Positions 23,650 to 43,418 of a DNA stretch of 64,000 bases are shown piece by piece. The notes under the pieces were generated by a model. That model had not been told where the DNA came from, searched no databases, and saw only the letters and a program-made list of their open reading frames with translations. The stretch is from NCBI GenBank assembly GCA_000002435.2, contig CM018789.1; one strand, written 5' to 3'. This DNA is from Giardia intestinalis. Lineage: Eukaryota. A program made the translations under genes and the position numbers. Every line of letters begins with the position of its first letter. Positions within the stretch are counted from its first letter, which is position 1.

Positions 23650-26600
23650 ATGCTCGTCTGGTCTTCCACATAGGACTGTGTCAGAAGCTCACGCATGTCT
23701 TCACAGCTCTTCAGTCCGTCGCCTACTCTCGGTAAGTACATAATAGCGTAATGTGAGTAATATCTGGACGTTTCACAAACTTATACGCAACTGTGTACGT
23801 CTCACTTTTGATACATGAAATCGATATATTAATATACTTTACAACTCAGGGCATTTACCAAGACATTCTGTCCCGTTCCAGATAAAGCAGCATCGCCCGC
23901 TGAGCTAAGTATTCAGATCGCTATTGTAGCGCTCCCTGCATCCTTCCCTTGCAGAATGCCAGTAGCTGAGCGGGAACGTGTCTGCGAGAATAGCGAGCAC
24001 CAAGGAGCAGGTGCATATGGCGTACGTGGCTGAGGCGAGTGTTGCTCTGCTACCCAACGCTCGACATGTACACTTTCGACTCGCTAAGCGATGCAGACAA
24101 AGATGCCAGCTTGGCCCGCAGTAGTTCTCCGATCCTTCTGCCCAGTGGCCTCTCCGATGAGCAACAGCCAACTGGAGAGTCGTCAATCGCTGGGACGCCC
24201 AGACCGCACAGTGGCCGCTCAAGAGGTGCAAGGGCTGCACACACCGCTGTGGATGGTGCGCTCTGTCAACGGCTCTCCACGCTGAGCTGGCCCTTAGCTG
24301 CTACTCTGTGGCCTCCGATGGGACGGGCATTATGAAGAGGTTTACTTGGAGAACCCCTGACATTGCGACGCCTATCCTGAGAAGACAATGCTATCTCACA
24401 TAAGCTACTTCCACTACTCATTCCCACTGATCCAGATAACCCATCTTGCATGCTTCGGATTGCCCTCTCTTGCCAGCAGAGCAGCCACCACCCTGTGTGT
24501 CTCCTTCAGACACAGTTTCGTCTATGACGGCACCTTTTGTCTCTTCTCTGGAGAGGCATAACCGTCCCAATCCAGACACCTTGCTCTCAGCACACACCTC
24601 GTATCCAGCAGAGGCCAGGTGCTCGTCGACCATATCCCATGAGTATCAGCGCTGTGCCACTATGTTGCTTCCTGTCCTTCTTGAGGGGCGTGCTCTGACC
24701 ATCTCAGTGTCTCTATGATAGGAGAGATGTGGATCCGGAGGTGGTTGTTGCTTTCTGGCACCCCTCTGCTGACCAGAAGAGTGCAAGAGCGCCCTTCGGG
24801 AGTCGGTCCCCTAATTTTCTGTTCTCTCGGGGAAGTGGTCCTTGGATAGCGCCACTCGGAGGACTCCCAAAGCGTCACTGTATGGGCGCTGCTTTACAAA
24901 CACTCCTGGCTGAAGCTGGACCCGAATCCTCCTAAAGCAACTTTATAGAGTTACCTGGTGGCCCATTCCTTGACTACTATCAGCAGAGGTCTCAACCTCC
25001 CAAGGACATCTCGGGGATAGTACGTTTGGCCCACGTCAGCGCCACTTCCTGGCAGAGGCATGCGGAGGATCTGCTCCCTCTTGTGGATCCATCATTAGTA
25101 TCGAGAGCACTGCGTCTGTTACCTTCGTTGGAGGTGTCGAGAGATGGTGCCCCGTATCTATCCCATTGAAGAGTTGGAGGTCCGCCAGGACAGCGAAGAT
25201 GATCCCATCAGGGCTGTGATCATATACCCGTCATTATGGCAACCATAGTGTAGATAAGACAACTGTCTGGGCCCCGCAACTCCCGGCGTAGGACGCCAGG
25301 AGGCTTGGCTGGGTCAGGCTAGTGAGGGCTACCCCTGTCATAACAGGCTTAGAAAATAGGGAGCGAGTGACGTACCTGGTGTCCACCAATGCACGCATGC
25401 AGCCTGGAAGCTGTGCTCAAAGCACCGAGGCCTGCAGGGGTGTGGCATCCGAACAGGCCCGACAGTTATGACTGCTTCTGAGAACAGCCAGCATGACTGG
25501 ACGAGGACATGAAAGCTCATGGAGGCCCTCACAGTCTTGATGTCTGGGAGAACACGGGGACTGACCACTCCAAGATTGTCCATCTCATGAGCTGGCTTTC
25601 GATAGCAGGCATAACAAGGAAGTGACCCCCAGTCATACACAATCTCATGCGATTCCATCGCAGCCTAGAGCATCCTTATCTGGCCTGCCAGTCCATCCAT
25701 GACGGTAGCAGATGTGTCAGCATTCCAGATCATCGGCCACCGCAGCTGCACAGTCGGGGTACTGCCTATGGTATTGCTCACTGATACTTTACATGGAGCC
25801 CTGTCCCTGTGGTAGTGACAGGTGAACTTCTCTGCAGATGCAGATCTAATGATATGGTTCCTCTTGGGCATTCTACTCCTACTTCTGTCTGGTCTCTCAC
25901 CTCAATGCGAGTGGCCAGCGGCTGTTACTGGGTCTTGCAGCATAACTATTACACATTTGTGTGCTAATCAAGACTACCATATAGGGTCACACAAGCCGGG
26001 AGCTCTGTCAGGCAATTATCGGACTCGATATCAAGATGGCACGGGGACAACACTCCCAGTGGTCACCGGGGACATGAATCATCATACAAGCCGCATAGTG
26101 CACCAGAAGCAGCACAACGGTGAAGAGCATGCCTGGATGTAGATGGCGCCTACAGCAAGCGGCATGCTGTCGTTGTCGGTACAACGGGCATAGTGGCTAC
26201 TGGACCCACGCTTTGGTAGCCTCGATTGGAGCAATTGTACAGCGAAGGAGCAGGGCGTAGGGACATGGGCACCAACCGGTCGAGCAGCGTGTACATGTAT
26301 GAGCACGGTTATAAGTCTCGCCTACACTGTTGGGTGGTGCTCTGCCTCGATGTGGACTCAGCGGGTTGGCTCTTATATCAGTGGCAGATGGCAGAACACC
26401 ACGCTGGTCATGTGGTGAGAGGTCTTCATGCGGTCTTCCAACTATTCTAAGTCACGCTGGAAAGCAGCTAGCCCTCCCGCACCACGTCTCCTCTCCAAAT
26501 AGGACTGAAGGCGCCCAGGGCGCTCTTCTAGGGCCTTAGTATCATGGAGCCCGTGCCAGGCAGGAGAGTTCTATGTTGCATGGCGTGAGAGTCTCTAGGG

Positions 26601-29600
26601 GGTGTAAACACTTGCGTGGTTGTAGCAACGCATCTCCACCAGCAAGTGTCAGGGCACATCGGTGGACAGGTGCATATTAAGTCAGGCACTCTGTGTGCGG
26701 TTATGCATCACAGCTCTTATAACGGGCCACGGGCAGCCTGAGGATCTCTGCTTTATAGCAGCGTGGATGTGGGGTGGTGCGCCCAGAGCATCGCCAGATC
26801 GATAGCTTCAGCGCGGCATCCAACAAGGTGCAGCAGGGCATCGAGCCAGGTGAGCGTTGGACCAGATCCTGAGTGGGGGCTGGGACTCCTGTGCACGGCT
26901 GGGCTGCTCCCAGATAGAATAGGGTACAGAGTGAATTAGATGAGTGCGACGCTGTAAGGTATCCACAGTCGCATAAATGCATCCGGCGGGCCCACACTGG
27001 ACTCTAAGAGGCACGCTGCCGGACAAGCCGAGGAGACTCGAGGGGTGGTGGCGCCGTCTTGTTATCTCTATGCAGTGCTCCGCAGGTATGTACTCAGGAG
27101 GTATCTCTTGATGGCTGGAGAGAGGACAGAGCTGGGCGATGGTGAGCATGCCCATCATGAGCAGCTCCAGGTGCTATCCGATCACTCCTTGGAAAGGCAT
27201 ATGCCTCAGCTAGGTTGCATCACATCCAGGGCAGAAGAGGAAGCTGTGCACTGTCTGACCCGCCATTCAGGGCCATGTGCGGATAAAAGGCAGACCAGTG
27301 ACTGATGCTCTGTACTGCCTCCTCATCCGCTGCCTAAGCAGCCAGAAGCCAGGATCGATATGCAGATAGAGGCTATGAAAAGTGGACTAATCACGGGGCT
27401 GATTGTCTGATACCAAAAAATCCGGAACGACGATGGCAGCCGCTGTCTCCCTAAGATGATGTATTATGCGCGGTATCGACCTTGGTCTCCCAGGTGAGCA
27501 GGCTGGGGACACTCTGGCTGGCCCTGACTTCTGAGGCATTAAGATCTTAAGCAGCACAGAAGGAGACAACGGTATATACAGACGGTGCGTTGTCTTCATA
27601 AAGGTGCACTCCAACTTCCAAATGCATGCAGCTGCGCTGAGACAGGCGGTTCAGCTGGCTTACATTGGCACCCTGTCAGCCATCGTGCTTGCTGCGATCA
27701 GAGGCTGCGTCTGCTCGGCAGACTGAATAGAGATTACAGCGGCTTCCATGGTTATCCACGTTGCACGATGTCCAATGGTAGAGTAGCCACCGTCTGTCTG
27801 AGGTGTTTGCTATCGATAGGAGACAGCGCTTGGTTGCACCAGAGGTGCTTTTGTTTAAGTATAGAGTCTTTATGGCTGCTTCTCCACTGGCTATAATGAT
27901 AACTGTATACTTAAAAAGGTCCTGCAGAGCAATCCACCGTCTTTCAAGATGAGACATGGGCCTGCATCTAAAGCTAAAAACGGAAACTCGTGCACCAAGT
28001 GCCATAAGCCTAGTGTACTGACTGGCCTGGATCACAGTCCATTTGTCAAGAACCTGTGCACACGTTTGGATGCTCCCTGCTAGTGGCAGACGGACCTACG
28101 AGGAGGCTTGTCTTTGGTAGCATTCGCTTTATAATATTTAGCCCTTGGTGACACACCTCAACGAAGAAGGGTGTTACTTAGGTGCACAGGAAGCTATCCG
28201 TGCACAGCGATTCTCAGAGAGCCGGCTCACACAGAGAAGGTAGAGGCCACCAGCAGACCAGTGAGATAAAACTGATGCTAGAGAGGCCAGCAATTAGCCT
28301 GAATTACAGCAGGGACACCTGTATTGCCTCTTTGACCTCTATGCCTGGAGAGGTCGTAGGGTCTGCAGACAAGCTAGATGCTGCTTTTTGATTTTATGCA
28401 CTTACAGCAACGTAATATTATTAAGAGTTGCTTCGTTTGGAACCGAGGGCATTCACCTTCCCTTCGTATACGGGTGAGGATCGATTGTAGAGGTATACTG
28501 CGCAGGTTGGTATCAGTCGGCATGGTTGCTGTCCACATGTGTCTCACCTACGTCCTCCCACGGCAGACGGACACCAATGACGCTTCTTGGCCACATGACG
28601 TCCTACGATGTATCTCCACCTTCGATACAGGTTGCTACACATACTGCGTAGTTTGGATTGCTCATCAGCCAAGGTGATCTGATCAGCTCTTGTCCTCTGC
28701 CCGTCTATCTCGTGCAACCATTTATTGATGGTCTTTCCAGATCAACAGGTGCTTCCATCGGTCCCACAAAAGAATGTGTTATGCAGGCGGCCACTACAGG
28801 CCAGAGCCTTGTCTACCAAGAAAAAGGGTCAATCAGTTCACTGCGTGGGGGTCCTTTGTACGTCTTATGTAATCCAGCAGGTCTTGTGCTCCCCAACATC
28901 TTCACTCACAATCCGCTGTCTGGAGCCCGCGTGCATATCGTTACTACCAAACACTTAGCAGCTTCGACTGACCACCTAGGACGTCAAATCCCTTGCGCTG
29001 CACAGTGGGTATGCTCAGCGTGAGAGATACATAGTCAGCATCAGCCTTCTCAGCTCATCGTCTGGGTAATACTACTACTGTTTCTCATCCAATCAGCTAG
29101 CGCGAGGACCCAGCTCATGACCAGCAAACCGAGACAGGCTATTCCAGGAGGTCTTCAAGCACAGCAGTACCTTGTTAACGAGTAGTCAGCAGTAACCATG
29201 ACACGTACTTCCACTAAGGCATGACCTCCTTGAGCGGGGGTGTGAAGTGGGTCCCTGTCATTTTGCGATCCTACTAATCTTTTAGCCAAGAGGGATCAGA
29301 ACAGCTCAGATTAGCATTGATCACTTCTGGGTCTCCATCTATCTCCGTCGTCTGGGGTGTGCTTGACCCTGTAGACTGAGAAGGGCGCTATATTGTGCTC
29401 GTGCCTGCACGTCTCCGTCAGACAAGGCTACCCTCTTGGAGACTGCGCTAAGGTAGCCACACGTCCCGAGGAACTTGCAGAGAGCATCCCAGTCCAATAG
29501 AACTCCTTACCTATCGAATGCAAGTTGTAGTTGTGGCCTCATAAGTGCAGGATTTTTTAGAATAACCGGTCAACTACATAGTTTGCCTGCTCACCCAGAC

Positions 29601-31161
29601 CCATCTGATGGAAGATGATATCAATCTCGTCAGTTGTCTACAACGTACACCAGTCAAATCTTATAGATGGACAGGGACCACCCAGCCCACAACACTAGAC
29701 ATTACCAGATATCTTTTAAGACAAGGAGGAGCGACTGGTAGACCACAGCAGTCGTCTGCTCATTGGAAACCTTCCAGTAACTGACTTAGGCCAGCTTCCT
29801 ACAAGATTCTTGGCGAGTTGTATCAGAAACGCATGCTTATGGGACTCCCAGCTCAAGGTGTATGGTGCTGGATCGCACTTTCCATACCAGTCTGTGTACA
29901 GCGGTGCTCTGGCCTCTAGCGGAGCTATAGAAGATCGCAGGATATGATGCCCTCAATAGGGTTTGTCTGATTCCTATAGCTATATGATAGGAGGATGCCG
30001 GCCTTCTATGCATTATGTAACGCGTGCTAAGCAACACCAGTACAAGTCCTGCAATGTGGCATGATTCGTGAGTCAAGAGGTAGGACGCTTGGGCTGATCG
30101 GCGTGTCTCCTCGGGACCAACTATAGCTCGGACCAAGGGTCATGAGCGAATGCTATTCGATTCCCTTATCAGCAGATGGGGGGATCAACTGCTCTAGTAC
30201 TCACAGGAGGCTATAAAGGATGCTGGACTAATACAGTCTCCCTGGATCCCTGTTCCTTCTACTACAGACATCCACATGTAGGAAGCTCTGAGGACCTAGA
30301 GCCCTACACTAACAGGTTCAAGGTACTGCACTCCTAGGTGCTTCCATTAGTGGTGGTAGTGATAGCACCAGGATGATCCAGAGGGGAGGATAAGAGTCCT
30401 GATCCATCAGCTCAGGGGGTGGCACAGCTTGGGCAGGGTTTCCTCCTTGTCTAAATTTAGGATTGCTGGCCTACGCCCTCTGACCATCTGACACCTTATC
30501 ATGTGATGTGGAACCTTAAAGTATCCACTACAAAAAGCCAGAAATAGCGCCATGCACACCCAACAAACCAGAGCGTCTCATAGGCCAATCTACACTGATT
30601 CACACATCTATGGACCTTAGCGACTGCTGCGATCTTCTCTTGGGATCTTGTAGGGGTCTATCCTTGAGTGCGGCTCCCCCACGACAGCTAGGAATCGCAG
30701 ACATAATCCAAAAGGATGAGAATACTACAGAGGCGGAGAAGAGATCATCGGCGCACGGGGGTCCACAGGGGCTCGATCCGCGCAGGGGAGGCACAGGGAG
30801 CTGGCTCATCAGGGACGCAGAGACATTAGGAGAGGAACCAGCAGTGGGCCCATAACGCAGGGAGGACGCCCGGGCCGCCCTTTGATTAGCTACAGGGTAG
30901 GGGAGTAGCAGACACGCAAGACAGCATCGCTACTTATTTTTGAATTTTCTGTTTCCCTGCGTGTTGTGCAAGAATCCGTGGTGGGCGGCAAACTATATGT
31001 AGTAGATGCTTTCAGCATTAACAACTATCGCTTGTACAACGATATTATAAAAAAGGAAGATCTCTAAGTTAGTAGCATAGTAATAACCAGATGAATCTTT
31101 TTAGCTTTAAGTACCTTTACTAACAGGACTCTTACCCTATAATAAGCTGAGGGAAACTTCA

Positions 31162-32952
31162 ATGTTGTTGATAGCCTTCTATCTTATATTATCTACATTT
31201 GCAGTAGATTGCAAGAATAGTGGAAATAGTTGTGAAGCTGGCCAATGTGATACGATTGGCGATACTGAAATCTGTATGCAATGTAATCAAGGGAAAGTAC
31301 CCATCAATGGAATATGTACAGCCCATAGTGAAGAAGCAGTCACTAACGCTGGTTGTAAGAAGAACGGGGGTACTAATATAGAAGAAAGTGATAAGGTATG
31401 TGGACAATGTGGAAATGGCTACTTCCTGCACAAAGGCGGATGCTATAAGATAGGAGAGGCTCCTGGCAATCTCATCTGTGCGGATGAGGCGTCAAATCCT
31501 GGTGCACGTACTGCAGGGGTGTGTGGTGCTTGCAAGGATGGCTATTATAAGAATTCGGATGCTGTTGCAACTGCAGACTCCTGTATAGCATGTGAAGATG
31601 CCAACTGTGCCACATGTGGAGGAGCTGGTGAAAACAAATGTACAAAATGTATAGACGGATACTTTGTTGGAGCAACTGGAAATGAAGGTGGGTGCATAAA
31701 ATGTGACGCTACCACAGGGCCTAATAGCTACAAAGGAGTTGCTGGATGTGCTAAATGTGAAAAGCCAAAGAACGCTGGTCCTGCAAAGTGCATTGAATGT
31801 GCTGCTGATTATTTGAAAACAGAAGCAGATGAACAAACGTCTTGCGTTAGCGAAGCCGTGTGCAGAGAAGGCAAGACGCACTTCCCCACTACTGACAGCG
31901 CTGGTGGTAACAAGAAGGTATGCGTAAGTTGTGGCACAACGAATAATGGCGGCATAGAAAACTGTGGAGAATGCACCTCTAAGGAAAGCGCTGCACGGGC
32001 AGGGACAGAGATCACCTGCACCAAATGCTCTAGCAATAATCTGAGCCCCCTGGGAGACGCGTGTCTAACAGACTGCCCTGCCGGAACGTATGCCGTTAGT
32101 GGCGACAGCGGCAGTGTCTGCAAGCCCTGTCACAACACGTGCGCCGGCTGCCAGACCGACGACAGGGAGACTTCCTGCACGGCCTGCTACCCTGGATACT
32201 CCCTTCTGTATGAGTCCAACGGAGCAACTGGGAGGTGCGTCAAGGAGTGCACTGGTGCGTTCATTACCAACTGTGCGGACGGGCAGTGCACGGCTAACGT
32301 CGGGGGTGCGAAGTACTGCACCCAGTGCAAGGACGGGTACGCCCCGATCGACGGGATCTGTACAGCGGTGGCAGCTGCCGGGAGAGACGTGAGCGTGTGC
32401 ACGGCCACAGGTGGCAAGTGCACGGCATGTACAGGCAACTATGCGTTATTATCAGGTGGATGTTATAACACACAAACACTTCCTGGAAAGTCAGTATGTA
32501 AAGCCGTGGCTAATAGCAATGACGGGAAATGCAAAACATGTGCCAATGGTCAAGCACCAGATCCTGCTACTAATTTCTGCCCATTGTGTGATTCAACTTG
32601 TGCAGAATGTTCAACTAAAAATGATGCTGATGCTTGTACAAAATGTTTTCCAGGATACTATAAAACAGGAAATAAGTGTATCAAATGTACAGAAAGTAGT
32701 AATAACGGAAAAAAGATCGATGGAATACCTGATTGTTTAAGTTGTGAAGCACCGATTAATACTGGTCCTGTCATCTGCTACGTTAAAACGGATGGCACTA
32801 GCGATGATAACAGCGGCAATGGTGGAGACAGCACCAACAAGAGCGGCCTTTCCACTGGCGCCATCGCGGGGATCTCCGTCGCAGCCTTCGTCGTCGTGGC
32901 CGGCCTCGTGGGCTTCCTCTGCTGGTGGTTCATATGCAGGGGGAAGGCGTAG
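31162..32952 (+). CDS. vsp: Variant-specific surface protein (VSP), 596 aa, left-arm copy
   Basis: Signal peptide MLLIAFYLILSTFAVDC; about 12% Cys with dozens of CXXC motifs (CGQC, CGAC, CIAC, CATC, CTKC, CAKC, CIEC, CVSC, CGEC, CAGC, CTAC, CTQC, CKTC, CAEC, CTKC, CIKC, CLSC); GGCY motifs; a C-terminal TM helix (GAIAGISVAAFVVVAGLVGFLCWWFI) and the invariant CRGKA tail. AGTAAAC polyA signal 9 nt after the stop. Confidence 0.92.
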   Translation: MLLIAFYLILSTFAVDCKNSGNSCEAGQCDTIGDTEICMQCNQGKVPINGICTAHSEEAVTNAGCKKNGGTNIEESDKVCGQCGNGYFLHKGGCYKIGEAPGNLICADEASNPGARTAGVCGACKDGYYKNSDAVATADSCIACEDANCATCGGAGENKCTKCIDGYFVGATGNEGGCIKCDATTGPNSYKGVAGCAKCEKPKNAGPAKCIECAADYLKTEADEQTSCVSEAVCREGKTHFPTTDSAGGNKKVCVSCGTTNNGGIENCGECTSKESAARAGTEITCTKCSSNNLSPLGDACLTDCPAGTYAVSGDSGSVCKPCHNTCAGCQTDDRETSCTACYPGYSLLYESNGATGRCVKECTGAFITNCADGQCTANVGGAKYCTQCKDGYAPIDGICTAVAAAGRDVSVCTATGGKCTACTGNYALLSGGCYNTQTLPGKSVCKAVANSNDGKCKTCANGQAPDPATNFCPLCDSTCAECSTKNDADACTKCFPGYYKTGNKCIKCTESSNNGKKIDGIPDCLSCEAPINTGPVICYVKTDGTSDDNSGNGGDSTNKSGLSTGAIAGISVAAFVVVAGLVGFLCWWFICRGKA

Positions 32953-32960
32953 ACTTAGGT

Positions 32961-32967
32961 AGTAAAC
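32961..32967 (+). promoter_or_regulatory. Giardia-type polyadenylation signal (AGTRAAY = AGTAAAC) for the left VSP copy
   Basis: ...gcgTAGacttaggtAGTAAACgcg. The motif lies within 15 nt of the stop codon, as is typical for Giardia mRNAs. The mirror copy is at 35586-35592 on the minus strand. Confidence 0.6.
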
Positions 32968-33420
32968 GCGTCACTGTATATGGCTTATTACGCTGTGCTG
33001 CTGGGGCTATCTGAGAGCGGTCCAGAGATCATGCGAGTGGGCCCGCTCCTTCCTGGCCAGTCTAAGGACGAGGGTTGAGTATGGATAACATAATGAAAGA
33101 GTCCTCTTCAGTGACACATCCAGAATCTGGGCATTCCTCGCCGCTCCATGAGGATATGCTCTGTCTGGATGTCCATGCCGATCTGCCTTGGATTCAGGTC
33201 TTCTCGCAGACTCTCTGCTCTACCAGTGGCGCCTCTCCTTGGCCTGCCGTCTGGTGGGTGAAGCTCCAGTCGCCGTCTTTTTTAGATGCTCCCGTCTGAC
33301 TCGGTGATTGCTGTCGGGCCCTCCGCTGGCTGGGCCCCTCGGTGTCCGGGCAGCTGTGGCCCGGGTCAGCGCTCCCACAGTCGCGGTCGCTTGGGTCCCA
33401 GCGGGTTCGGATGATGGGTG

Positions 33421-35132
33421 GGGCGGTGAGGCTGGTGGGGCTCTGGTGGGGGCTGAGGTTGGTGGTGTTCGTATGTGCCTCTGGGTTCGGTGGGTCATTG
33501 GGGTGATCCCCGCTCTGTTTGCCAAGGTGGTTGTGTCTGCTCTCCAGCCCTCGTTGCACTCCCGAGACACAGGCACCGACGATCGTGTCGTGTCCCCCTG
33601 ACTGAGTGCCTCCCTTGGCCCCTGCATGCCTCAGGCAGTACTGCTGCTCTGTCTGGCTGGTGCGTGAGTGTCGAGGCAGGCCATCGCAGCCCCTCCTGCT
33701 ACTCGCTGTTGCTCTGTGCGGGTCTGCTGAGCCCCTGGCATGCCCTGTCCGGTGCCTCGACGGGGAGTTCACCTGGGACCAGCAGGGGTGTGGATGAGCC
33801 TGTGGATGGGATGGGTTCTCTCATGCCTCTAGTGTGATGACTCAAAAGACTAACACGGTGGGGCATCGGTGACTGCACTGTCCCCGTGGTCAGCTGTGCT
33901 GCTCCTGGTGGGTCCTCGTTGTGAAGCGCTGTGTGTCGTCCGTAGGCAGGGGTGAGCCCCCTTGGTCTCAGGATGCTCTACCATCAGAGAGGAGCACGCT
34001 GAGGATCACCCAACATCACCTGCTGTGCCCTCGGGAGTTCCCGGTGTGGTCTACTAACCTTGACCCCTCCTCGTGGCTCTGATGACCCCTCGGGGAGAGT
34101 CGGCATCCTATGCCAGGGGAGGCGTGCACCCTCCTGCATGAGCTGAGTCACTCACTGCACTGCCCTCAAGGAGGTCTGCTATGAGAGGCAGTGGAATGAT
34201 CGACAGCCCCTCAGAGTGGGTGGAGGGTGCTCGTGGTCGTCTCTGTGACCGGGCATCACTCTGATGGTCAGTCCTGTGCCTGGGTGGTGCTCAGAGGTCA
34301 CCTGTGCTCCATAGCCTGCTGGACAGCCGGGCCTCTTGTGGTGTCCGAAGGTCTCCTCACTCCTCTGGCTGCTGCCCCCTCAGGTCATCGTGAATGCAGT
34401 CGAGGCCAGCGAGTCTGGTGCCTGCCTGGGTGTCATGGGGGCTGGCAGCTGTCAGGGCTCTGCCACTGCTCACCTGCCTGGAGTGTGCCTCCCTTGGGCC
34501 TGCTCTGCTGTAGTGTTTGAGTCCTCTGGCTTCCTATCAGGCCCTGATTGTGAGGGTGACCCCACCTGGTCCTCTGATGCCCCTGTGGATGAGCATGGCA
34601 GCTGTCTGGCTGGGAATCTCTGGTGCCCGTGTCTGTTGCTGCCTCTCGGGTGCTCGGGTGGTTGCCTGGGGCTCTCGTATGGGGCACAGTCAGCGTGTCC
34701 CGAGCAGACTCCGGTCCTCTCTGGGTCTACACAGTCTGTTCGTGTGTGGACGGTCCTCCTGCACTCAGGTCCGTCTGGTTCATTGTCACTCAGCTTCGAG
34801 AGTAGGCCAGTGCAGTCACCAGGGCTGCTGTCAGAGGGAGTCGTCTGCCACTACCATCGCTCGAGCAGGCCCTGCAGATCAGGCTGGCTGCTGTGCACCC
34901 TCAGCATCATGGCAGGGCTGCTTAACTCCCTTGGTCACCCTCTCTGTCCCAGCGTGCACGGCTCCTGAGGGTTGCCTGGGCGGAGGGCACTCACGAGTCC
35001 ACAGAGGGATGGGTCACAGATAGACAGCCCCCAGTCACCACAGCTGCGATCACCCGACATGGCCCATCAGACCCAGGGGCACATACAACCACCCCCCGGT
35101 CCCCTCCAGCCTCACCGCCCCATACCCCGCCT
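33421..35132. other. Unique, asymmetric central spacer of the palindrome (about 1.7 kb). It is GC-rich, and the top strand is G+T-rich and A-poor. No credible coding capacity.
   Basis: The sequence either side of the symmetry axis (about 34276) is not self-complementary. ORFs here (e.g. 34336-34968, 33194-33772) translate to P/S/G/W/C-rich low-complexity junk without VSP CXXC periodicity. G-runs on the top strand at the left boundary (ggggcggtgaggctggtggggctctggtgggggctgagg, 33420-33460); C-runs on the top strand at the right boundary (ccccccggtcccctccagcctcaccgcccc, about 35090-35125). Confidence 0.7.
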
Positions 35133-38100
35133 CACCCATCATCCGAACCCGCTGGGACCCAAGCGACCGCGACTGTGGGAGCGCTGACCCGGGCCACAGC
35201 TGCCCGGACACCGAGGGGCCCAGCCAGCGGAGGGCCCGACAGCAATCACCGAGTCAGACGGGAGCATCTAAAAAAGACGGCGACTGGAGCTTCACCCACC
35301 AGACGGCAGGCCAAGGAGAGGCGCCACTGGTAGAGCAGAGAGTCTGCGAGAAGACCTGAATCCAAGGCAGATCGGCATGGACATCCAGACAGAGCATATC
35401 CTCATGGAGCGGCGAGGAATGCCCAGATTCTGGATGTGTCACTGAAGAGGACTCTTTCATTATGTTATCCATACTCAACCCTCGTCCTTAGACTGGCCAG
35501 GAAGGAGCGGGCCCACTCGCATGATCTCTGGACCGCTCTCAGATAGCCCCAGCAGCACAGCGTAATAAGCCATATACAGTGACGCGTTTACTACCTAAGT
35601 CTACGCCTTCCCCCTGCATATGAACCACCAGCAGAGGAAGCCCACGAGGCCGGCCACGACGACGAAGGCTGCGACGGAGATCCCCGCGATGGCGCCAGTG
35701 GAAAGGCCGCTCTTGTTGGTGCTGTCTCCACCATTGCCGCTGTTATCATCGCTAGTGCCATCCGTTTTAACGTAGCAGATGACAGGACCAGTATTAATCG
35801 GTGCTTCACAACTTAAACAATCAGGTATTCCATCGATCTTTTTTCCGTTATTACTACTTTCTGTACATTTGATACACTTATTTCCTGTTTTATAGTATCC
35901 TGGAAAACATTTTGTACAAGCATCAGCATCATTTTTAGTTGAACATTCTGCACAAGTTGAATCACACAATGGGCAGAAATTAGTAGCAGGATCTGGTGCT
36001 TGACCATTGGCACATGTTTTGCATTTCCCGTCATTGCTATTAGCCACGGCTTTACATACTGACTTTCCAGGAAGTGTTTGTGTGTTATAACATCCACCTG
36101 ATAATAACGCATAGTTGCCTGTACATGCCGTGCACTTGCCACCTGTGGCCGTGCACACGCTCACGTCTCTCCCGGCAGCTGCCACCGCTGTACAGATCCC
36201 GTCGATCGGGGCGTACCCGTCCTTGCACTGGGTGCAGTACTTCGCACCCCCGACGTTAGCCGTGCACTGCCCGTCCGCACAGTTGGTAATGAACGCACCA
36301 GTGCACTCCTTGACGCACCTCCCAGTTGCTCCGTTGGACTCATACAGAAGGGAGTATCCAGGGTAGCAGGCCGTGCAGGAAGTCTCCCTGTCGTCGGTCT
36401 GGCAGCCGGCGCACGTGTTGTGACAGGGCTTGCAGACACTGCCGCTGTCGCCACTAACGGCATACGTTCCGGCAGGGCAGTCTGTTAGACACGCGTCTCC
36501 CAGGGGGCTCAGATTATTGCTAGAGCATTTGGTGCAGGTGATCTCTGTCCCTGCCCGTGCAGCGCTTTCCTTAGAGGTGCATTCTCCACAGTTTTCTATG
36601 CCGCCATTATTCGTTGTGCCACAACTTACGCATACCTTCTTGTTACCACCAGCGCTGTCAGTAGTGGGGAAGTGCGTCTTGCCTTCTCTGCACACGGCTT
36701 CGCTAACGCAAGACGTTTGTTCATCTGCTTCTGTTTTCAAATAATCAGCAGCACATTCAATGCACTTTGCAGGACCAGCGTTCTTTGGCTTTTCACATTT
36801 AGCACATCCAGCAACTCCTTTGTAGCTATTAGGCCCTGTGGTAGCGTCACATTTTATGCACCCACCTTCATTTCCAGTTGCTCCAACAAAGTATCCGTCT
36901 ATACATTTTGTACATTTGTTTTCACCAGCTCCTCCACATGTGGCACAGTTGGCATCTTCACATGCTATACAGGAGTCTGCAGTTGCAACAGCATCCGAAT
37001 TCTTATAATAGCCATCCTTGCAAGCACCACACACCCCTGCAGTACGTGCACCAGGATTTGACGCCTCATCCGCACAGATGAGATTGCCAGGAGCCTCTCC
37101 TATCTTATAGCATCCGCCTTTGTGCAGGAAGTAGCCATTTCCACATTGTCCACATACCTTATCACTTTCTTCTATATTAGTACCCCCGTTCTTCTTACAA
37201 CCAGCGTTAGTGACTGCTTCTTCACTATGGGCTGTACATATTCCATTGATGGGTACTTTCCCTTGATTACATTGCATACAGATTTCAGTATCGCCAATCG
37301 TATCACATTGGCCAGCTTCACAACTATTTCCACTATTCTTGCAATCTACTGCAAATGTAGATAATATAAGATAGAAGGCTATCAACAACATTGAAGTTTC
37401 CCTCAGCTTATTATAGGGTAAGAGTCCTGTTAGTAAAGGTACTTAAAGCTAAAAAGATTCATCTGGTTATTACTATGCTACTAACTTAGAGATCTTCCTT
37501 TTTTATAATATCGTTGTACAAGCGATAGTTGTTAATGCTGAAAGCATCTACTACATATAGTTTGCCGCCCACCACGGATTCTTGCACAACACGCAGGGAA
37601 ACAGAAAATTCAAAAATAAGTAGCGATGCTGTCTTGCGTGTCTGCTACTCCCCTACCCTGTAGCTAATCAAAGGGCGGCCCGGGCGTCCTCCCTGCGTTA
37701 TGGGCCCACTGCTGGTTCCTCTCCTAATGTCTCTGCGTCCCTGATGAGCCAGCTCCCTGTGCCTCCCCTGCGCGGATCGAGCCCCTGTGGACCCCCGTGC
37801 GCCGATGATCTCTTCTCCGCCTCTGTAGTATTCTCATCCTTTTGGATTATGTCTGCGATTCCTAGCTGTCGTGGGGGAGCCGCACTCAAGGATAGACCCC
37901 TACAAGATCCCAAGAGAAGATCGCAGCAGTCGCTAAGGTCCATAGATGTGTGAATCAGTGTAGATTGGCCTATGAGACGCTCTGGTTTGTTGGGTGTGCA
38001 TGGCGCTATTTCTGGCTTTTTGTAGTGGATACTTTAAGGTTCCACATCACATGATAAGGTGTCAGATGGTCAGAGGGCGTAGGCCAGCAATCCTAAATTT

Positions 38101-41100
38101 AGACAAGGAGGAAACCCTGCCCAAGCTGTGCCACCCCCTGAGCTGATGGATCAGGACTCTTATCCTCCCCTCTGGATCATCCTGGTGCTATCACTACCAC
38201 CACTAATGGAAGCACCTAGGAGTGCAGTACCTTGAACCTGTTAGTGTAGGGCTCTAGGTCCTCAGAGCTTCCTACATGTGGATGTCTGTAGTAGAAGGAA
38301 CAGGGATCCAGGGAGACTGTATTAGTCCAGCATCCTTTATAGCCTCCTGTGAGTACTAGAGCAGTTGATCCCCCCATCTGCTGATAAGGGAATCGAATAG
38401 CATTCGCTCATGACCCTTGGTCCGAGCTATAGTTGGTCCCGAGGAGACACGCCGATCAGCCCAAGCGTCCTACCTCTTGACTCACGAATCATGCCACATT
38501 GCAGGACTTGTACTGGTGTTGCTTAGCACGCGTTACATAATGCATAGAAGGCCGGCATCCTCCTATCATATAGCTATAGGAATCAGACAAACCCTATTGA
38601 GGGCATCATATCCTGCGATCTTCTATAGCTCCGCTAGAGGCCAGAGCACCGCTGTACACAGACTGGTATGGAAAGTGCGATCCAGCACCATACACCTTGA
38701 GCTGGGAGTCCCATAAGCATGCGTTTCTGATACAACTCGCCAAGAATCTTGTAGGAAGCTGGCCTAAGTCAGTTACTGGAAGGTTTCCAATGAGCAGACG
38801 ACTGCTGTGGTCTACCAGTCGCTCCTCCTTGTCTTAAAAGATATCTGGTAATGTCTAGTGTTGTGGGCTGGGTGGTCCCTGTCCATCTATAAGATTTGAC
38901 TGGTGTACGTTGTAGACAACTGACGAGATTGATATCATCTTCCATCAGATGGGTCTGGGTGAGCAGGCAAACTATGTAGTTGACCGGTTATTCTAAAAAA
39001 TCCTGCACTTATGAGGCCACAACTACAACTTGCATTCGATAGGTAAGGAGTTCTATTGGACTGGGATGCTCTCTGCAAGTTCCTCGGGACGTGTGGCTAC
39101 CTTAGCGCAGTCTCCAAGAGGGTAGCCTTGTCTGACGGAGACGTGCAGGCACGAGCACAATATAGCGCCCTTCTCAGTCTACAGGGTCAAGCACACCCCA
39201 GACGACGGAGATAGATGGAGACCCAGAAGTGATCAATGCTAATCTGAGCTGTTCTGATCCCTCTTGGCTAAAAGATTAGTAGGATCGCAAAATGACAGGG
39301 ACCCACTTCACACCCCCGCTCAAGGAGGTCATGCCTTAGTGGAAGTACGTGTCATGGTTACTGCTGACTACTCGTTAACAAGGTACTGCTGTGCTTGAAG
39401 ACCTCCTGGAATAGCCTGTCTCGGTTTGCTGGTCATGAGCTGGGTCCTCGCGCTAGCTGATTGGATGAGAAACAGTAGTAGTATTACCCAGACGATGAGC
39501 TGAGAAGGCTGATGCTGACTATGTATCTCTCACGCTGAGCATACCCACTGTGCAGCGCAAGGGATTTGACGTCCTAGGTGGTCAGTCGAAGCTGCTAAGT
39601 GTTTGGTAGTAACGATATGCACGCGGGCTCCAGACAGCGGATTGTGAGTGAAGATGTTGGGGAGCACAAGACCTGCTGGATTACATAAGACGTACAAAGG
39701 ACCCCCACGCAGTGAACTGATTGACCCTTTTTCTTGGTAGACAAGGCTCTGGCCTGTAGTGGCCGCCTGCATAACACATTCTTTTGTGGGACCGATGGAA
39801 GCACCTGTTGATCTGGAAAGACCATCAATAAATGGTTGCACGAGATAGACGGGCAGAGGACAAGAGCTGATCAGATCACCTTGGCTGATGAGCAATCCAA
39901 ACTACGCAGTATGTGTAGCAACCTGTATCGAAGGTGGAGATACATCGTAGGACGTCATGTGGCCAAGAAGCGTCATTGGTGTCCGTCTGCCGTGGGAGGA
40001 CGTAGGTGAGACACATGTGGACAGCAACCATGCCGACTGATACCAACCTGCGCAGTATACCTCTACAATCGATCCTCACCCGTATACGAAGGGAAGGTGA
40101 ATGCCCTCGGTTCCAAACGAAGCAACTCTTAATAATATTACGTTGCTGTAAGTGCATAAAATCAAAAAGCAGCATCTAGCTTGTCTGCAGACCCTACGAC
40201 CTCTCCAGGCATAGAGGTCAAAGAGGCAATACAGGTGTCCCTGCTGTAATTCAGGCTAATTGCTGGCCTCTCTAGCATCAGTTTTATCTCACTGGTCTGC
40301 TGGTGGCCTCTACCTTCTCTGTGTGAGCCGGCTCTCTGAGAATCGCTGTGCACGGATAGCTTCCTGTGCACCTAAGTAACACCCTTCTTCGTTGAGGTGT
40401 GTCACCAAGGGCTAAATATTATAAAGCGAATGCTACCAAAGACAAGCCTCCTCGTAGGTCCGTCTGCCACTAGCAGGGAGCATCCAAACGTGTGCACAGG
40501 TTCTTGACAAATGGACTGTGATCCAGGCCAGTCAGTACACTAGGCTTATGGCACTTGGTGCACGAGTTTCCGTTTTTAGCTTTAGATGCAGGCCCATGTC
40601 TCATCTTGAAAGACGGTGGATTGCTCTGCAGGACCTTTTTAAGTATACAGTTATCATTATAGCCAGTGGAGAAGCAGCCATAAAGACTCTATACTTAAAC
40701 AAAAGCACCTCTGGTGCAACCAAGCGCTGTCTCCTATCGATAGCAAACACCTCAGACAGACGGTGGCTACTCTACCATTGGACATCGTGCAACGTGGATA
40801 ACCATGGAAGCCGCTGTAATCTCTATTCAGTCTGCCGAGCAGACGCAGCCTCTGATCGCAGCAAGCACGATGGCTGACAGGGTGCCAATGTAAGCCAGCT
40901 GAACCGCCTGTCTCAGCGCAGCTGCATGCATTTGGAAGTTGGAGTGCACCTTTATGAAGACAACGCACCGTCTGTATATACCGTTGTCTCCTTCTGTGCT
41001 GCTTAAGATCTTAATGCCTCAGAAGTCAGGGCCAGCCAGAGTGTCCCCAGCCTGCTCACCTGGGAGACCAAGGTCGATACCGCGCATAATACATCATCTT

Positions 41101-43418
41101 AGGGAGACAGCGGCTGCCATCGTCGTTCCGGATTTTTTGGTATCAGACAATCAGCCCCGTGATTAGTCCACTTTTCATAGCCTCTATCTGCATATCGATC
41201 CTGGCTTCTGGCTGCTTAGGCAGCGGATGAGGAGGCAGTACAGAGCATCAGTCACTGGTCTGCCTTTTATCCGCACATGGCCCTGAATGGCGGGTCAGAC
41301 AGTGCACAGCTTCCTCTTCTGCCCTGGATGTGATGCAACCTAGCTGAGGCATATGCCTTTCCAAGGAGTGATCGGATAGCACCTGGAGCTGCTCATGATG
41401 GGCATGCTCACCATCGCCCAGCTCTGTCCTCTCTCCAGCCATCAAGAGATACCTCCTGAGTACATACCTGCGGAGCACTGCATAGAGATAACAAGACGGC
41501 GCCACCACCCCTCGAGTCTCCTCGGCTTGTCCGGCAGCGTGCCTCTTAGAGTCCAGTGTGGGCCCGCCGGATGCATTTATGCGACTGTGGATACCTTACA
41601 GCGTCGCACTCATCTAATTCACTCTGTACCCTATTCTATCTGGGAGCAGCCCAGCCGTGCACAGGAGTCCCAGCCCCCACTCAGGATCTGGTCCAACGCT
41701 CACCTGGCTCGATGCCCTGCTGCACCTTGTTGGATGCCGCGCTGAAGCTATCGATCTGGCGATGCTCTGGGCGCACCACCCCACATCCACGCTGCTATAA
41801 AGCAGAGATCCTCAGGCTGCCCGTGGCCCGTTATAAGAGCTGTGATGCATAACCGCACACAGAGTGCCTGACTTAATATGCACCTGTCCACCGATGTGCC
41901 CTGACACTTGCTGGTGGAGATGCGTTGCTACAACCACGCAAGTGTTTACACCCCCTAGAGACTCTCACGCCATGCAACATAGAACTCTCCTGCCTGGCAC
42001 GGGCTCCATGATACTAAGGCCCTAGAAGAGCGCCCTGGGCGCCTTCAGTCCTATTTGGAGAGGAGACGTGGTGCGGGAGGGCTAGCTGCTTTCCAGCGTG
42101 ACTTAGAATAGTTGGAAGACCGCATGAAGACCTCTCACCACATGACCAGCGTGGTGTTCTGCCATCTGCCACTGATATAAGAGCCAACCCGCTGAGTCCA
42201 CATCGAGGCAGAGCACCACCCAACAGTGTAGGCGAGACTTATAACCGTGCTCATACATGTACACGCTGCTCGACCGGTTGGTGCCCATGTCCCTACGCCC
42301 TGCTCCTTCGCTGTACAATTGCTCCAATCGAGGCTACCAAAGCGTGGGTCCAGTAGCCACTATGCCCGTTGTACCGACAACGACAGCATGCCGCTTGCTG
42401 TAGGCGCCATCTACATCCAGGCATGCTCTTCACCGTTGTGCTGCTTCTGGTGCACTATGCGGCTTGTATGATGATTCATGTCCCCGGTGACCACTGGGAG
42501 TGTTGTCCCCGTGCCATCTTGATATCGAGTCCGATAATTGCCTGACAGAGCTCCCGGCTTGTGTGACCCTATATGGTAGTCTTGATTAGCACACAAATGT
42601 GTAATAGTTATGCTGCAAGACCCAGTAACAGCCGCTGGCCACTCGCATTGAGGTGAGAGACCAGACAGAAGTAGGAGTAGAATGCCCAAGAGGAACCATA
42701 TCATTAGATCTGCATCTGCAGAGAAGTTCACCTGTCACTACCACAGGGACAGGGCTCCATGTAAAGTATCAGTGAGCAATACCATAGGCAGTACCCCGAC
42801 TGTGCAGCTGCGGTGGCCGATGATCTGGAATGCTGACACATCTGCTACCGTCATGGATGGACTGGCAGGCCAGATAAGGATGCTCTAGGCTGCGATGGAA
42901 TCGCATGAGATTGTGTATGACTGGGGGTCACTTCCTTGTTATGCCTGCTATCGAAAGCCAGCTCATGAGATGGACAATCTTGGAGTGGTCAGTCCCCGTG
43001 TTCTCCCAGACATCAAGACTGTGAGGGCCTCCATGAGCTTTCATGTCCTCGTCCAGTCATGCTGGCTGTTCTCAGAAGCAGTCATAACTGTCGGGCCTGT
43101 TCGGATGCCACACCCCTGCAGGCCTCGGTGCTTTGAGCACAGCTTCCAGGCTGCATGCGTGCATTGGTGGACACCAGGTACGTCACTCGCTCCCTATTTT
43201 CTAAGCCTGTTATGACAGGGGTAGCCCTCACTAGCCTGACCCAGCCAAGCCTCCTGGCGTCCTACGCCGGGAGTTGCGGGGCCCAGACAGTTGTCTTATC
43301 TACACTATGGTTGCCATAATGACGGGTATATGATCACAGCCCTGATGGGATCATCTTCGCTGTCCTGGCGGACCTCCAACTCTTCAATGGGATAGATACG
43401 GGGCACCATCTCTCGACA
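35133..43418. repeat. Right arm (8286 bp) of the inverted repeat, reverse complement of 25135-33420
   Basis: See the left arm. All mirrored ORF translations are identical, implying about 100% nucleotide identity. Confidence 0.9.
35601..37391 (-). CDS. vsp: Variant-specific surface protein (VSP), 596 aa, right-arm copy, identical to 31162-32952
   Basis: Translation identical to the left-arm VSP. Its 3' end faces the left copy across about 2.65 kb (tail-to-tail). Confidence 0.92.
   Translation of the reverse strand: MLLIAFYLILSTFAVDCKNSGNSCEAGQCDTIGDTEICMQCNQGKVPINGICTAHSEEAVTNAGCKKNGGTNIEESDKVCGQCGNGYFLHKGGCYKIGEAPGNLICADEASNPGARTAGVCGACKDGYYKNSDAVATADSCIACEDANCATCGGAGENKCTKCIDGYFVGATGNEGGCIKCDATTGPNSYKGVAGCAKCEKPKNAGPAKCIECAADYLKTEADEQTSCVSEAVCREGKTHFPTTDSAGGNKKVCVSCGTTNNGGIENCGECTSKESAARAGTEITCTKCSSNNLSPLGDACLTDCPAGTYAVSGDSGSVCKPCHNTCAGCQTDDRETSCTACYPGYSLLYESNGATGRCVKECTGAFITNCADGQCTANVGGAKYCTQCKDGYAPIDGICTAVAAAGRDVSVCTATGGKCTACTGNYALLSGGCYNTQTLPGKSVCKAVANSNDGKCKTCANGQAPDPATNFCPLCDSTCAECSTKNDADACTKCFPGYYKTGNKCIKCTESSNNGKKIDGIPDCLSCEAPINTGPVICYVKTDGTSDDNSGNGGDSTNKSGLSTGAIAGISVAAFVVVAGLVGFLCWWFICRGKA

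What the first reader, a model, noticed from the sequence alone, without database searches (positions are those of the whole stretch)
33421..35132. Strand-asymmetric GC-rich spacer bracketed by opposite-strand G-run (G-quadruplex-like) motifs at the points where arm identity decays
The spacer is not self-complementary about the axis, so it is a true unique core rather than a continuation of the palindrome. Its top strand is G+T-rich and A-poor; sampled 60-mers have about 17% A and about 38% G. It is punctuated by ctgg/gtgg/tggg repeats and translates to junk in all frames. At the left inner boundary the top strand has ggggcggtgaggctggtggggctctggtgggggctgagg (several GGGG/GGGGG runs). The degenerate mirror at the right inner boundary puts the equivalent G-runs on the bottom strand. 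So each arm ends in a G4-prone or R-loop-prone element pointing into the spacer, exactly where gene-conversion homogeneity stops. This could act as a conversion boundary, a replication or transcription terminator for the convergent VSPs, or a fragile site seeding rearrangement.
Basis: seen in the sequence. Interest (0 to 1): 0.5.

Follow-up and report, generated by a model that had tools for sequence, protein, structure and literature searches.

The report
Non-coding centre of Giardia VSP palindrome
This is the already described non-coding DNA between two identical, convergent surface-antigen (VSP) genes of Giardia; the one new detail is that a short, length-variable G-rich tract on each side marks where the two gene copies stop being kept identical, here and in at least one related locus.

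Summary
The window is Giardia assemblage A. Two identical 596-aa VSP genes converge 2,648 bp apart. This matches the published VSP1267 pair of isolate WB in both numbers.

The observation largely holds:
- The centre is not self-complementary.
- It is non-coding.
- It is 62% GC and A-poor (A 13.9%, T 23.6%).
- The strongest G4Hunter regions of the whole 64 kb sit at the two arm ends, on opposite strands, where perfect identity stops (first mismatch at 33421).

Corrections:
- G is not in excess (G 31.7%, C 30.7%).
- ctgg/gtgg/tggg are not enriched beyond composition.
- The inverted repeat continues weakly to 33517/35039.
- The outer arm edge also decays, without G-runs.
- The "unique" core is a multicopy family. 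Eight related modules were recovered from metagenome assemblies (90-94% identical in the core), all with the same polarity and G tracts.

Outside the G tract the two flanks are homogenised. Inside it, sequences group by side across loci.

Best reading: arm-to-arm gene conversion whose inner limit is fixed passively by a slippage-prone G-rich tract. The G4 potential follows from G content alone. An active G4, R-loop or terminator role is untested.

The structure is known; the boundary detail is modest.

The parts
31162..32952 (+). Left VSP gene (596 aa, ends ...CRGKA*)
   Evidence: ORF list. Pfam PF03302 VSP, E = 3e-76. 220 VSP homologues with E <= 1e-50.
35601..37391 (-). Right VSP gene, identical inverted copy
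   Evidence: ORF list. Lies within the zero-mismatch part of the arms.
32961..32967 (+). AGTAAAC, Giardia-type polyadenylation signal 9 nt after the left VSP stop codon (mirror copy at 35586-35592 on -)
   Evidence: Pattern AGTRAAY found at 32961. That this motif is the Giardia poly(A) signal is established knowledge.
25134..33420 (.). Left arm, part with zero mismatches to the right arm (8,287 nt). Includes about 6 kb of non-coding DNA upstream of the VSP.
   Evidence: Base-by-base complement check; the repeat finder.
35133..43419 (.). Right arm, part with zero mismatches to the left arm
25095..25133 (.). Decayed outer edge of the left arm: 7 mismatches, then no similarity. Mirror copy at 43420-43458. 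No G-runs.
32953..33402 (+). VSP 3' flank inside the arm. Non-coding and A-poor on the strand that is sense for the VSP (A 15%, T 26% over 32953-33426).
   Evidence: Composition. The 74-aa ORF at 33075-33299 is not conserved in frame in L008 or L011.
33403..33470 (+). Left G-rich hypervariable tract (68 nt, 57% G; TRF reports a 9-nt unit GGTGGGGCT x3). Perfect arm identity ends inside it, at 33420.
   Evidence: G4Hunter 2.08; TRF; tract table; highest G fraction in the window.
33471..33517 (.). Left relic of the old inverted repeat (starts GTATGTGCC). About 65% identical to its right partner but 94% identical to the left relic of locus L008.
33518..35038 (+). Asymmetric core (1,521 nt). Non-coding. 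The 1,700-nt spacer that contains it is 62% GC and A 13.9% / T 23.6% on +. Member of a multicopy family of inter-VSP cores.
   Evidence: Composition of the 1,700-nt spacer. No period-3 signal, no Rfam match, no Pfam match. Homologues L007-L014 are 90-94% identical.
35039..35086 (.). Right relic of the old inverted repeat (GGCACATAC at 35078-35086)
35087..35150 (-). Right G-rich tract (64 nt, 61% G on the - strand). Differs from the left tract by indels.
   Evidence: G4Hunter 1.96 on -; alignments; tract table.
35151..35600 (-). VSP 3' flank of the right arm, mirror of 32953-33402

Best explanation
WHAT IT IS
The interval is the non-coding centre of a tail-to-tail pair of identical Giardia VSP genes. 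ORF size (596 aa) and spacing (2,648 bp) both equal those of the VSP1267 pair of isolate WB. It has three layers:
- A 1,521-bp asymmetric, A-poor, GC-rich core. It belongs to a family of related cores found between or beside VSP genes.
- A relic of about 47 bp on each side, left over from an older, longer inverted repeat.
- A 64-68-bp G-rich, minisatellite-like tract on each side. The G strand is the sense strand of the adjacent VSP.

HOW IT MOST LIKELY WORKS
- The two arms are kept identical by arm-to-arm (intrachromosomal) gene conversion.
- Conversion stops in the G tract. Replication slippage there keeps creating length differences between the two copies, and these break the homology. The short relic on the inner side is then too short and too diverged to be converted.
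- The boundary is therefore fixed passively, by heterology plus the ordinary edge effect seen at the end of any homology block.
- The core makes no product. Its most likely role is structural: a 1.5-kb non-palindromic spacer keeps an 8.3-kb perfect palindrome from folding into a hairpin or cruciform.

SHOWN: the anatomy, the family, the by-locus versus by-side pattern, tract hypervariability and the absence of coding or RNA-family signals.
INFERRED: gene conversion as the homogenising process, heterology as the reason it stops, and the stabilising role of the spacer.
For: - The arms have zero mismatches over 8,287 nt, with decay at both edges. The outer edge has no G-runs, so decay at the edge of homology is generic.
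- The left and right tracts differ mainly by indels of G-rich units. Tract length ranges from 34 to 82 nt among six copies, between conserved anchors on either side. This zone is the least conserved part of the family alignment. TRF finds a 9-nt repeat unit.
- Outside the tract, flanks show no side signal: winL = winR at 100%, L008L-L008R at 89%, cross-locus 77-82%. Inside, relics group by side across loci: 94% and 75-86%, against 49-67% between sides. The limit of homogenisation has therefore stayed at the tract since before the modules diverged.
- G4 potential equals that of composition-matched shuffles.
- The core is non-coding: no period-3 signal, no Pfam hit, no Rfam hit, no consistent conserved fold (mean z -0.5), and frameshifted relative to homologues.
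- Literature on the pairs: WB has 12-13 tail-to-tail identical VSP pairs, 2,526-2,813 bp apart, with nothing annotated between them (PMC7000408). 3' divergence points lie 318-559 nt after the stop codon, and 7 of 9 lie at 486-559 (PMC2996952). Ours are 468-474 nt (perfect identity) and 565 nt (relic end). Intergenic regions are near-identical between pairs (10.1101/2022.03.07.483299).
- Literature on the process: gene conversion with median tracts of about 3.3 kb, enriched at VSPs and GC-rich DNA, is reported in assemblage A (PMC12669663).
Against: - No conversion event is observed directly. Identical arms could also reflect a very recent duplication at this locus.
- The by-locus signal in the second locus is weak: L008 left versus right is 89%, against 87-88% to L011.
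- The passive model does not explain why the tract stays G-rich at 57-65% in every copy, beyond inheritance of G-rich repeat units.
- It does not explain why the core is better conserved between modules (90-94%) than the flanks (77-82%).
- It does not explain why the core is A-poor on one strand.
- The comparison loci are short metagenome contigs, and some may be chimeric (L013, L009).
Confidence: 0.5

Rival explanations
1. The G tracts are active cis-elements. They would form G-quadruplexes or R-loops on the strand that is non-template for each VSP. This could (a) block branch migration or DNA synthesis and so set the conversion limit, (b) start the breaks that drive arm-to-arm conversion, or (c) pause or terminate read-through transcription. 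Without (c), transcription running from one VSP into its inverted copy would make a long hairpin dsRNA.
For: - These are the top two G4Hunter regions of the 64 kb, and they sit exactly at the arm ends.
- Every family member that spans a boundary keeps a tract with at least 4 runs of G3+ and G4Hunter 1.8-2.2, despite sequence turnover.
- ViennaRNA with quadruplex energies places a quadruplex in the minimum-energy fold of all five tracts tested.
- The orientation suits both genes: G lies on the sense strand, about 440 nt downstream of the poly(A) signal.
- Giardia TBP binds single-stranded G tracts in vitro, although weakly (PMC12209930).
- From my own knowledge, G4 motifs are tied to antigen-gene recombination in Neisseria pilE and Plasmodium var.
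Against: - Composition-matched shuffles reach the same G4Hunter maximum in 33-91% of cases.
- No canonical G3+N1-7 motif is present.
- The mirror placement follows automatically from the tract being part of an inverted repeat.
- The outer arm edge shows the same decay without G-runs.
- Published divergence points of 559 and 572 nt in two WB pairs suggest that identity can run past the tract. This assumes flank lengths are similar, which was not tested.
- No RNA, G4 or R-loop data could be examined.
Confidence: 0.2
2. The core is a functional non-coding element, for example a unidirectionally transcribed RNA or a regulatory or chromatin element for the VSP pair. Its conservation and strand skew would then reflect function and transcription.
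For: - The core is 90-94% identical between paralogous modules, against 77-82% for the arm flanks.
- The T>A skew runs in a single direction across the whole core and the left flank in all members.
- Two windows show locally stable conserved folds, with z from -2.9 to -3.9.
Against: - No Rfam match at E <= 1.
- The mean alifold z is only -0.5.
- The preprint describes a pseudogene annotated between one VSP pair as non-transcribed.
- High similarity can equally come from gene conversion between modules. The L009 mosaic points that way.
Confidence: 0.1
3. The flank-core-flank module is a relic of a mobile or foldback-like element. It would have about 0.5-kb terminal inverted repeats and a non-coding centre, and would have spread and carried VSP 3' ends with it.
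For: - It is a multicopy family: three distinct copies occur in one sample, and WB has 12-13 tail-to-tail pairs with near-constant spacing.
- In L008 the module, with its 369-nt inverted flanks, stands next to a single VSP.
- The same module (99-100% identical) is joined to a different VSP body in L009.
- The preprint reports transposon relics around duplicated pairs.
Against: - No transposase or reverse-transcriptase signal in any frame.
- No target-site duplication or defined termini were seen.
- In this locus the inverted repeat runs through the VSP and 6 kb beyond it.
- The left and right relics are old and side-specific. This fits a single ancestral palindrome copied by segmental duplication or recombination.
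Confidence: 0.1
4. The perfect 8.3-kb palindrome is an assembly artefact.
For: Identical inverted VSP pairs were once suspected of being artefacts, and they broke early assemblies.
Against: - An independent short-read contig (L002, 99.993% identical) stops 80 nt inside the right arm, as expected at a true repeat.
- Metagenome contigs join the core to the arms (L008, L009, L011).
- The PacBio WB assembly lists the same 596-aa / 2,648-bp pair.
- The VSP1267 pair was described experimentally in the literature cited.
Confidence: 0.02

Closest known systems
Identical inverted (tail-to-tail) VSP gene pairs of Giardia intestinalis, e.g. VSP1267 = GL50803_112208/d112208 (Adam et al. 2010, PMC2996952; Xu et al. 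2020, PMC7000408; preprint 10.1101/2022.03.07.483299)
   Same: - Two identical convergent VSP ORFs.
- ORF size of 596 aa and spacing of 2,648 bp, identical to the published VSP1267 pair.
- Nothing coding between the genes.
- Abrupt 3' divergence a few hundred nt after the stop codon.
- An intergenic region homologous to those of other pairs.
- A long, gene-poor upstream region that is also duplicated.
   Different: Nothing essential differs. In the papers searched, I did not find the following described: the G-rich hypervariable tract at the divergence point, the relic of an older inverted repeat inside it, the side-specific versus locus-specific pattern, or the A-poor polarity of the core.
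Large palindromes with arm-to-arm gene conversion and a unique spacer (human Y-chromosome ampliconic palindromes P1-P8; my own knowledge)
   Same: Near-perfect arm identity over kilobases, a non-palindromic spacer, genes of a multicopy family in the arms, and signs of concerted evolution.
   Different: The scale differs: 8 kb against 9 kb to 1.45 Mb. Here the spacer with its inner flanks is itself a dispersed family, and the inner limit of conversion coincides with a G-rich minisatellite in at least two loci.
G-quadruplex motifs linked to antigen-gene recombination (Neisseria gonorrhoeae pilE G4; G4 motifs near Plasmodium var recombination sites; my own knowledge)
   Same: A G4-prone tract lies next to a variant surface-antigen gene that undergoes gene conversion.
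   Different: In pilE the G4 is genetically required and initiates recombination. Here no requirement is shown, the tract lies 3' of the gene at the end of the homology, and its G4 score is explained by base composition alone.
G-rich transcriptional pause or R-loop terminators downstream of poly(A) signals (mammalian examples; my own knowledge)
   Same: A G-rich non-template strand lies some hundreds of nt downstream of a poly(A) signal, between convergent genes.
   Different: No transcript data were available, and Giardia termination mechanisms are poorly known. The placement is a by-product of the inverted repeat.

Membership tests
Giardia identical tail-to-tail VSP pair module | Two identical convergent ORFs with a VSP domain, ending in CRGKA | tested here: met
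   ORFs 31162-32952 (+) and 35601-37391 (-) lie inside the zero-mismatch arms. PF03302 E = 3e-76. The CRGKA* tail is read directly.
Giardia identical tail-to-tail VSP pair module | 2.4-3.2 kb of non-coding DNA between the ORFs | tested here: met
   2,648 nt. No period-3 signal, no Pfam or Rfam hit, and no conserved reading frame. Published ranges are 2,393-3,222 and 2,526-2,813.
Giardia identical tail-to-tail VSP pair module | Flanks identical up to an abrupt divergence point 318-559 nt beyond the stop codon | tested here: met
   Perfect identity ends 468 nt after the stop codon (33420). The repeat finder places the arm end at 474 nt, and the degenerate repeat ends at 565 nt.
Giardia identical tail-to-tail VSP pair module | Intergenic sequence homologous to that of other pairs | tested here: met
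   Eight related modules or cores (L007-L014), 82-98% identical by blastn and 90-94% in the core. Three distinct copies occur in one sample. The preprint states the same for WB.
Palindrome maintained by arm-to-arm gene conversion | Arms more alike within a locus than between related loci (concerted evolution) | tested here: met
   Window arms are 100% identical, against 77-82% to L008 and L011. L008's own arms are 89%, against 87-88% to L011, which is weak.
Palindrome maintained by arm-to-arm gene conversion | Direct observation of conversion events, such as a polymorphism transferred between arms | not testable with these tools
   Needs population long-read data or marked-arm experiments.
G-quadruplex-forming sequence | Canonical motif G3+N1-7 repeated four times | tested here: not met
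   The regex scan finds none at either boundary. Motifs appear only with loops up to 12 nt, at 33393-33423 and 35125-35160.
G-quadruplex-forming sequence | G4Hunter score of 1.5 or more | tested here: met
   2.08 and 1.96, the top two of the window. Homologues score 1.76-2.24.
G-quadruplex-forming sequence | G-run arrangement beyond what base composition gives | tested here: not met
   Mononucleotide shuffles of each tract reach the observed maximum score in 33-91% of cases.
G-quadruplex-forming sequence | Quadruplex formation shown physically (CD, NMR, G4-seq or BG4) | not testable with these tools
   No such data were accessible.
Recombination-initiating G4 of antigen-variation loci (pilE type) | The G4 is genetically required for gene conversion of the antigen gene | not testable with these tools
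   Requires mutagenesis in Giardia.
G-rich pause or R-loop terminator | G-rich non-template strand downstream of a poly(A) signal | tested here: met
   AGTAAAC at 32961. The G tract at 33403-33470 is on the sense strand, and the mirror copy serves the right gene.
G-rich pause or R-loop terminator | Transcripts or polymerase shown to stop at the element | not testable with these tools
   No RNA-seq, 3'-end or DRIP data were available.
Known RNA family, protein-coding gene or transposon | Significant match to an Rfam or Pfam model | tested here: not met
   Rfam: 0 matches at E <= 1 over 24000-44500. Pfam, six frames: nothing below E = 0.5. tblastn with 120 VSPs hits only the two VSP ORFs.

The most novel reading that the evidence does not exclude
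The G-rich tract is a conserved, active cis-element of Giardia VSP palindromes. A quadruplex or R-loop on the VSP sense strand would set or trigger arm-to-arm gene conversion. It would also stop convergent read-through, which would otherwise turn each identical VSP pair into a hairpin-dsRNA source feeding the RNAi pathway proposed for VSP silencing. That would link DNA secondary structure to antigenic variation in a third, very distant lineage, after Neisseria and Plasmodium.
Probability: 0.15. Interest if true: 0.7.

Novelty: new member of a known kind. Interest (0 to 1): 0.3.

Why it matters
About 30% of the complete VSP genes of Giardia WB (38-40 of 133-136) sit in identical inverted pairs. 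Their origin and purpose are called 'cryptic' in the literature.

The analysis shows three things:
- The centre of the tail-to-tail pairs is one conserved, polar, non-coding module.
- Homogenisation of the two copies has stopped at the same G-rich, length-variable tract since before the modules diverged.
- The module can be attached to different VSP bodies.

This gives a concrete, testable landmark for studying gene conversion and read-through at VSP loci. As it stands, it refines a known structure rather than adding a new mechanism.

Tried and rejected
- Coding gene or pseudogene in the spacer: rejected. No period-3 signal, no Pfam hit, and frames not conserved. The 74-aa ORF in the flank is frameshifted in L008 and L011.
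- VSP remnant in the spacer or upstream arm: rejected. tblastn with 120 VSPs hits only the two ORFs.
- Known RNA family: none found.
- Conserved RNA structure: no consistent signal in an alifold scan against column shuffles.
- G excess or GC skew of the spacer: absent.
- ctgg/gtgg/tggg as a repeat: not enriched over a dinucleotide model.
- Internal repeats in the core: only short two-copy matches, probably chance.
- Telomere-like (TAGGG)n in the tract: not present, by inspection of the tracts.
- A six-frame concatenate of 4,369 aa as a single protein query timed out. A 705-aa concatenate of four ORFs worked.
- Exact look-ups of the window VSP, P0010 and P0121 found nothing.
- L001 (P0007) proved to be a head-to-tail VSP array, not a pair.
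- Two scans of the JGI metagenome collection with conserved 21- and 22-mers of the core found nothing.
- No paper searched links G-quadruplexes or R-loops to VSP loci.
Full report
WHAT THE WINDOW IS

The two long ORFs flanking the finding, 31162-32952 (+) and 35601-37391 (-), encode identical 596-aa proteins ending in CRGKA. They match Pfam PF03302, the Giardia variant-specific surface protein family (E = 3e-76), and 220 database VSPs.

A housekeeping protein of the window (45728-46999, -) occurs exactly in 56 blocks of short-read assemblies of Giardia. One of them is SRR3177751, an assemblage A genome. One such contig, L002, is 99.993% identical to the window and ends 80 nt inside the right arm.

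Xu et al. list a WB chromosome 1 pair, d112208/112208 (VSP1267). It is convergent, 596 aa, and 2,648 bp apart. The inter-ORF distance here is also 2,648 bp. I infer that the window is this locus or its equivalent in a near-identical strain. The protein tools did not return the expected self-hit, so this identification is an inference.

CHECK OF THE OBSERVATION

The arms. The inverted repeat has arms 25095-33426 and 35127-43458. A base-by-base check finds zero mismatches over 25134-33420. There are 7 mismatches at the outer edge (25097-25133), and the first inner mismatch is at 33421.

Composition of the 1,700 nt between the arms.
- It is 62.4% GC, with A 13.9%, C 30.7%, G 31.7% and T 23.6%.
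- T over A is highly significant (p = 7e-11). G over C is not (p = 0.62).
- Its AT skew is the most extreme in the window.
- The same composition already holds in the left arm's 3' flank (A 15%, T 26%), and the skew flips only at about 35000.

Symmetry and coding.
- The centre is not self-complementary: 27.6% against 25.9% expected.
- It shows no sign of coding: period-3 signal 0.67 against 5-24 for real ORFs, and no Pfam hit in six frames.
- It has no Rfam match.
- ctgg/gtgg/tggg are common but not enriched over a dinucleotide model.

The G-run tracts.
- They are real and are the top two G4Hunter regions of the 64 kb: 33401-33463 (+, 2.08) and 35080-35150 (-, 1.96).
- They are also the most G-rich and the most C-rich 65-nt windows.
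- No canonical G3+N1-7 motif is present.

FINER ANATOMY

Gapped alignment extends the inverted repeat, at about 65-80% identity, to 33517 and 35039. From the outside in, each side consists of:
- the VSP;
- the poly(A) signal AGTAAAC, 9 nt after the stop codon;
- about 450 nt of non-coding flank;
- a G-rich tract of 68 nt (left) or 64 nt (right), whose two copies differ mainly by indels (TRF sees a 9-nt unit GGTGGGGCT);
- a relic of about 47 nt beginning GTATGTGCC.

Between the two relics lies the 1,521-nt core, 33518-35038.

RELATED SEQUENCES

A search with concatenated spacer ORFs hit one database 'protein', P0121. It maps colinearly to 34082-35169 but hops across all three frames. This means the DNA is homologous but no reading frame is conserved.

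A profile-free HMMER scan with P0121 found seven more such ORFs. Their contigs, L007-L014, come from ENA metagenome assemblies.
- They align to the window at 82-98% identity.
- Within the core, substitution identity is 90-94%.
- Three distinct copies come from one sample (L008, L010, L013), so the core is a multicopy family.
- All keep A at 13-15% on the same strand.
- Every contig that reaches a boundary carries a G tract on the left or a C tract on the right, with G4Hunter 1.8-2.2.

The tract zone is the least conserved part of the alignment because of indels. Tract length ranges from 34 to 82 nt, with 57-65% G.

Three of the loci show that the module can be separated from its VSP or rearranged:
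- L008 is an eroded module: one VSP, the core, a 369-nt inverted flank at 87% identity, then another VSP in the same orientation.
- L009 carries the same module (99-100% identical from 34677 to 35600) joined to a different VSP body.
- The left part of L009 has clustered mismatches, a mosaic that suggests exchange between modules.

THE KEY COMPARISON

In the 330 nt outside the tract there is no side-specific signal. The window's two flanks are identical, L008's two flanks are 89% alike, and cross-locus values are 77-82% whichever sides are compared.

In the 75 nt inside the tract, sequences group by side across loci. Left to left is 94%. Right to right is 75-86%. Left to right is only 49-67%, even within one locus.

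So the two copies have been homogenised outside the tract but not inside it, and this limit predates the divergence of the modules.

MECHANISM

I favour a passive boundary (confidence 0.5).
- Arm-to-arm gene conversion keeps the arms identical. Conversion enriched at VSPs and GC-rich DNA is reported in assemblage A.
- The slippage-prone G tract keeps generating length heterology. This ends the usable homology and isolates the short relic.

In favour of the passive reading:
- The outer arm edge decays in the same way without G-runs.
- The tracts differ by indels.
- Composition-matched shuffles give the same G4 scores in 33-91% of cases.
- Two published pairs diverge at 559 and 572 nt. That is probably beyond the tract, but only if flank lengths are similar, which was not tested.

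The core probably acts only as a spacer that keeps an 8.3-kb palindrome stable. This rests on general knowledge that palindrome instability falls as spacer length grows.

An active G4, R-loop or terminator role (0.2) is not excluded. Every tract can fold into a quadruplex in silico, the G strand is the sense strand for each VSP, and G richness persists despite sequence turnover.

A functional non-coding RNA or element in the core (0.1) is suggested by its higher conservation and one-directional skew. It has no Rfam or consistent structural support.

A mobile-element relic (0.1) fits the copy number and the inverted flanks. It has no enzyme remnant and no recognisable termini.

COMPARISON WITH THE LITERATURE

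Identical inverted VSP pairs, their 2-4 kb of non-coding intervening DNA and the abrupt 3' divergence are described in PMC2996952 and PMC7000408. The similarity of intergenic regions between pairs, and the duplicated gene-poor upstream regions with transposon relics, are described in preprint 10.1101/2022.03.07.483299.

I found no paper that links G-rich tracts, quadruplexes or R-loops to VSP loci. The closest lead is that Giardia TBP binds single-stranded G tracts weakly in vitro.

VERDICT

The added value is:
- the layered anatomy;
- the family-wide conservation of polarity and G tracts;
- the evidence that homogenisation has long stopped at the tract.

What remains unexplained is the A-poor polarity of the core and its high conservation between modules. 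Interest is modest at 0.3. It would rise to about 0.7 if the tract proved to be an active element, which I rate at 0.15.

Noticed in passing
window 23650-31160 (mirror 37392-43458): About 6 kb inside each arm, upstream of the VSP, has no ORF above 122 aa, no period-3 signal and no VSP similarity. This is unusual for an 81%-coding genome. A preprint reports transposon relics in the 7-kb upstream region of VSP1267.
   Followed up: partly
window 25095-25133 and 43420-43458: The outer edge of the palindrome also decays (7 mismatches in 37 nt) before similarity ends. There are no G-runs there.
   Followed up: yes
L013 1-504 and 493-1841: This metagenome contig starts with a right-type relic in the left position and carries the first ~460 nt of the core twice. 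It is either a rearrangement next to the boundary or a mis-assembly of paralogues.
   Followed up: no
L009 43-1336 (window 34437-35733): The module is 99-100% identical to the window from 34677 to 35600 but is attached to a different VSP body. Eight mismatches cluster at 34439-34676, and the first 42 nt are unrelated. The mosaic suggests exchange between modules.
   Followed up: partly
L008 1-6072: An eroded module: VSP(+), flank, core, a 369-nt inverted flank at 87% identity, about 1.3 kb, then a second VSP in + orientation rather than an inverted twin.
   Followed up: partly
P0121-P0128 (database proteins): Eight catalogued 'proteins' of 114-396 aa are just long open frames in this A-poor non-coding DNA. 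With 14% A, stop codons are rare.
   Followed up: yes
window 31162-32952: The window's VSP found no database hit above 59% identity and no exact record. Yet the published WB VSP1267 pair has the same ORF size and spacing. The source genome seems to be hidden from the protein tools.
   Followed up: partly
window 33490-33610 and 34330-34450: These are the only windows of the core with locally stable conserved folds in the alifold scan: z -2.9/-3.9 on both strands for the first, and -3.4 on + for the second.
   Followed up: no
window 41697-41744 (mirror 26809-26856): A 22-nt tandem repeat of 2.2 copies lies inside the arm.
   Followed up: no
window 30414-30439 (+) and 38114-38139 (-): A second, weaker mirror pair of G4Hunter hits (1.56) lies about 730 nt upstream of each VSP start codon.
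   Followed up: no
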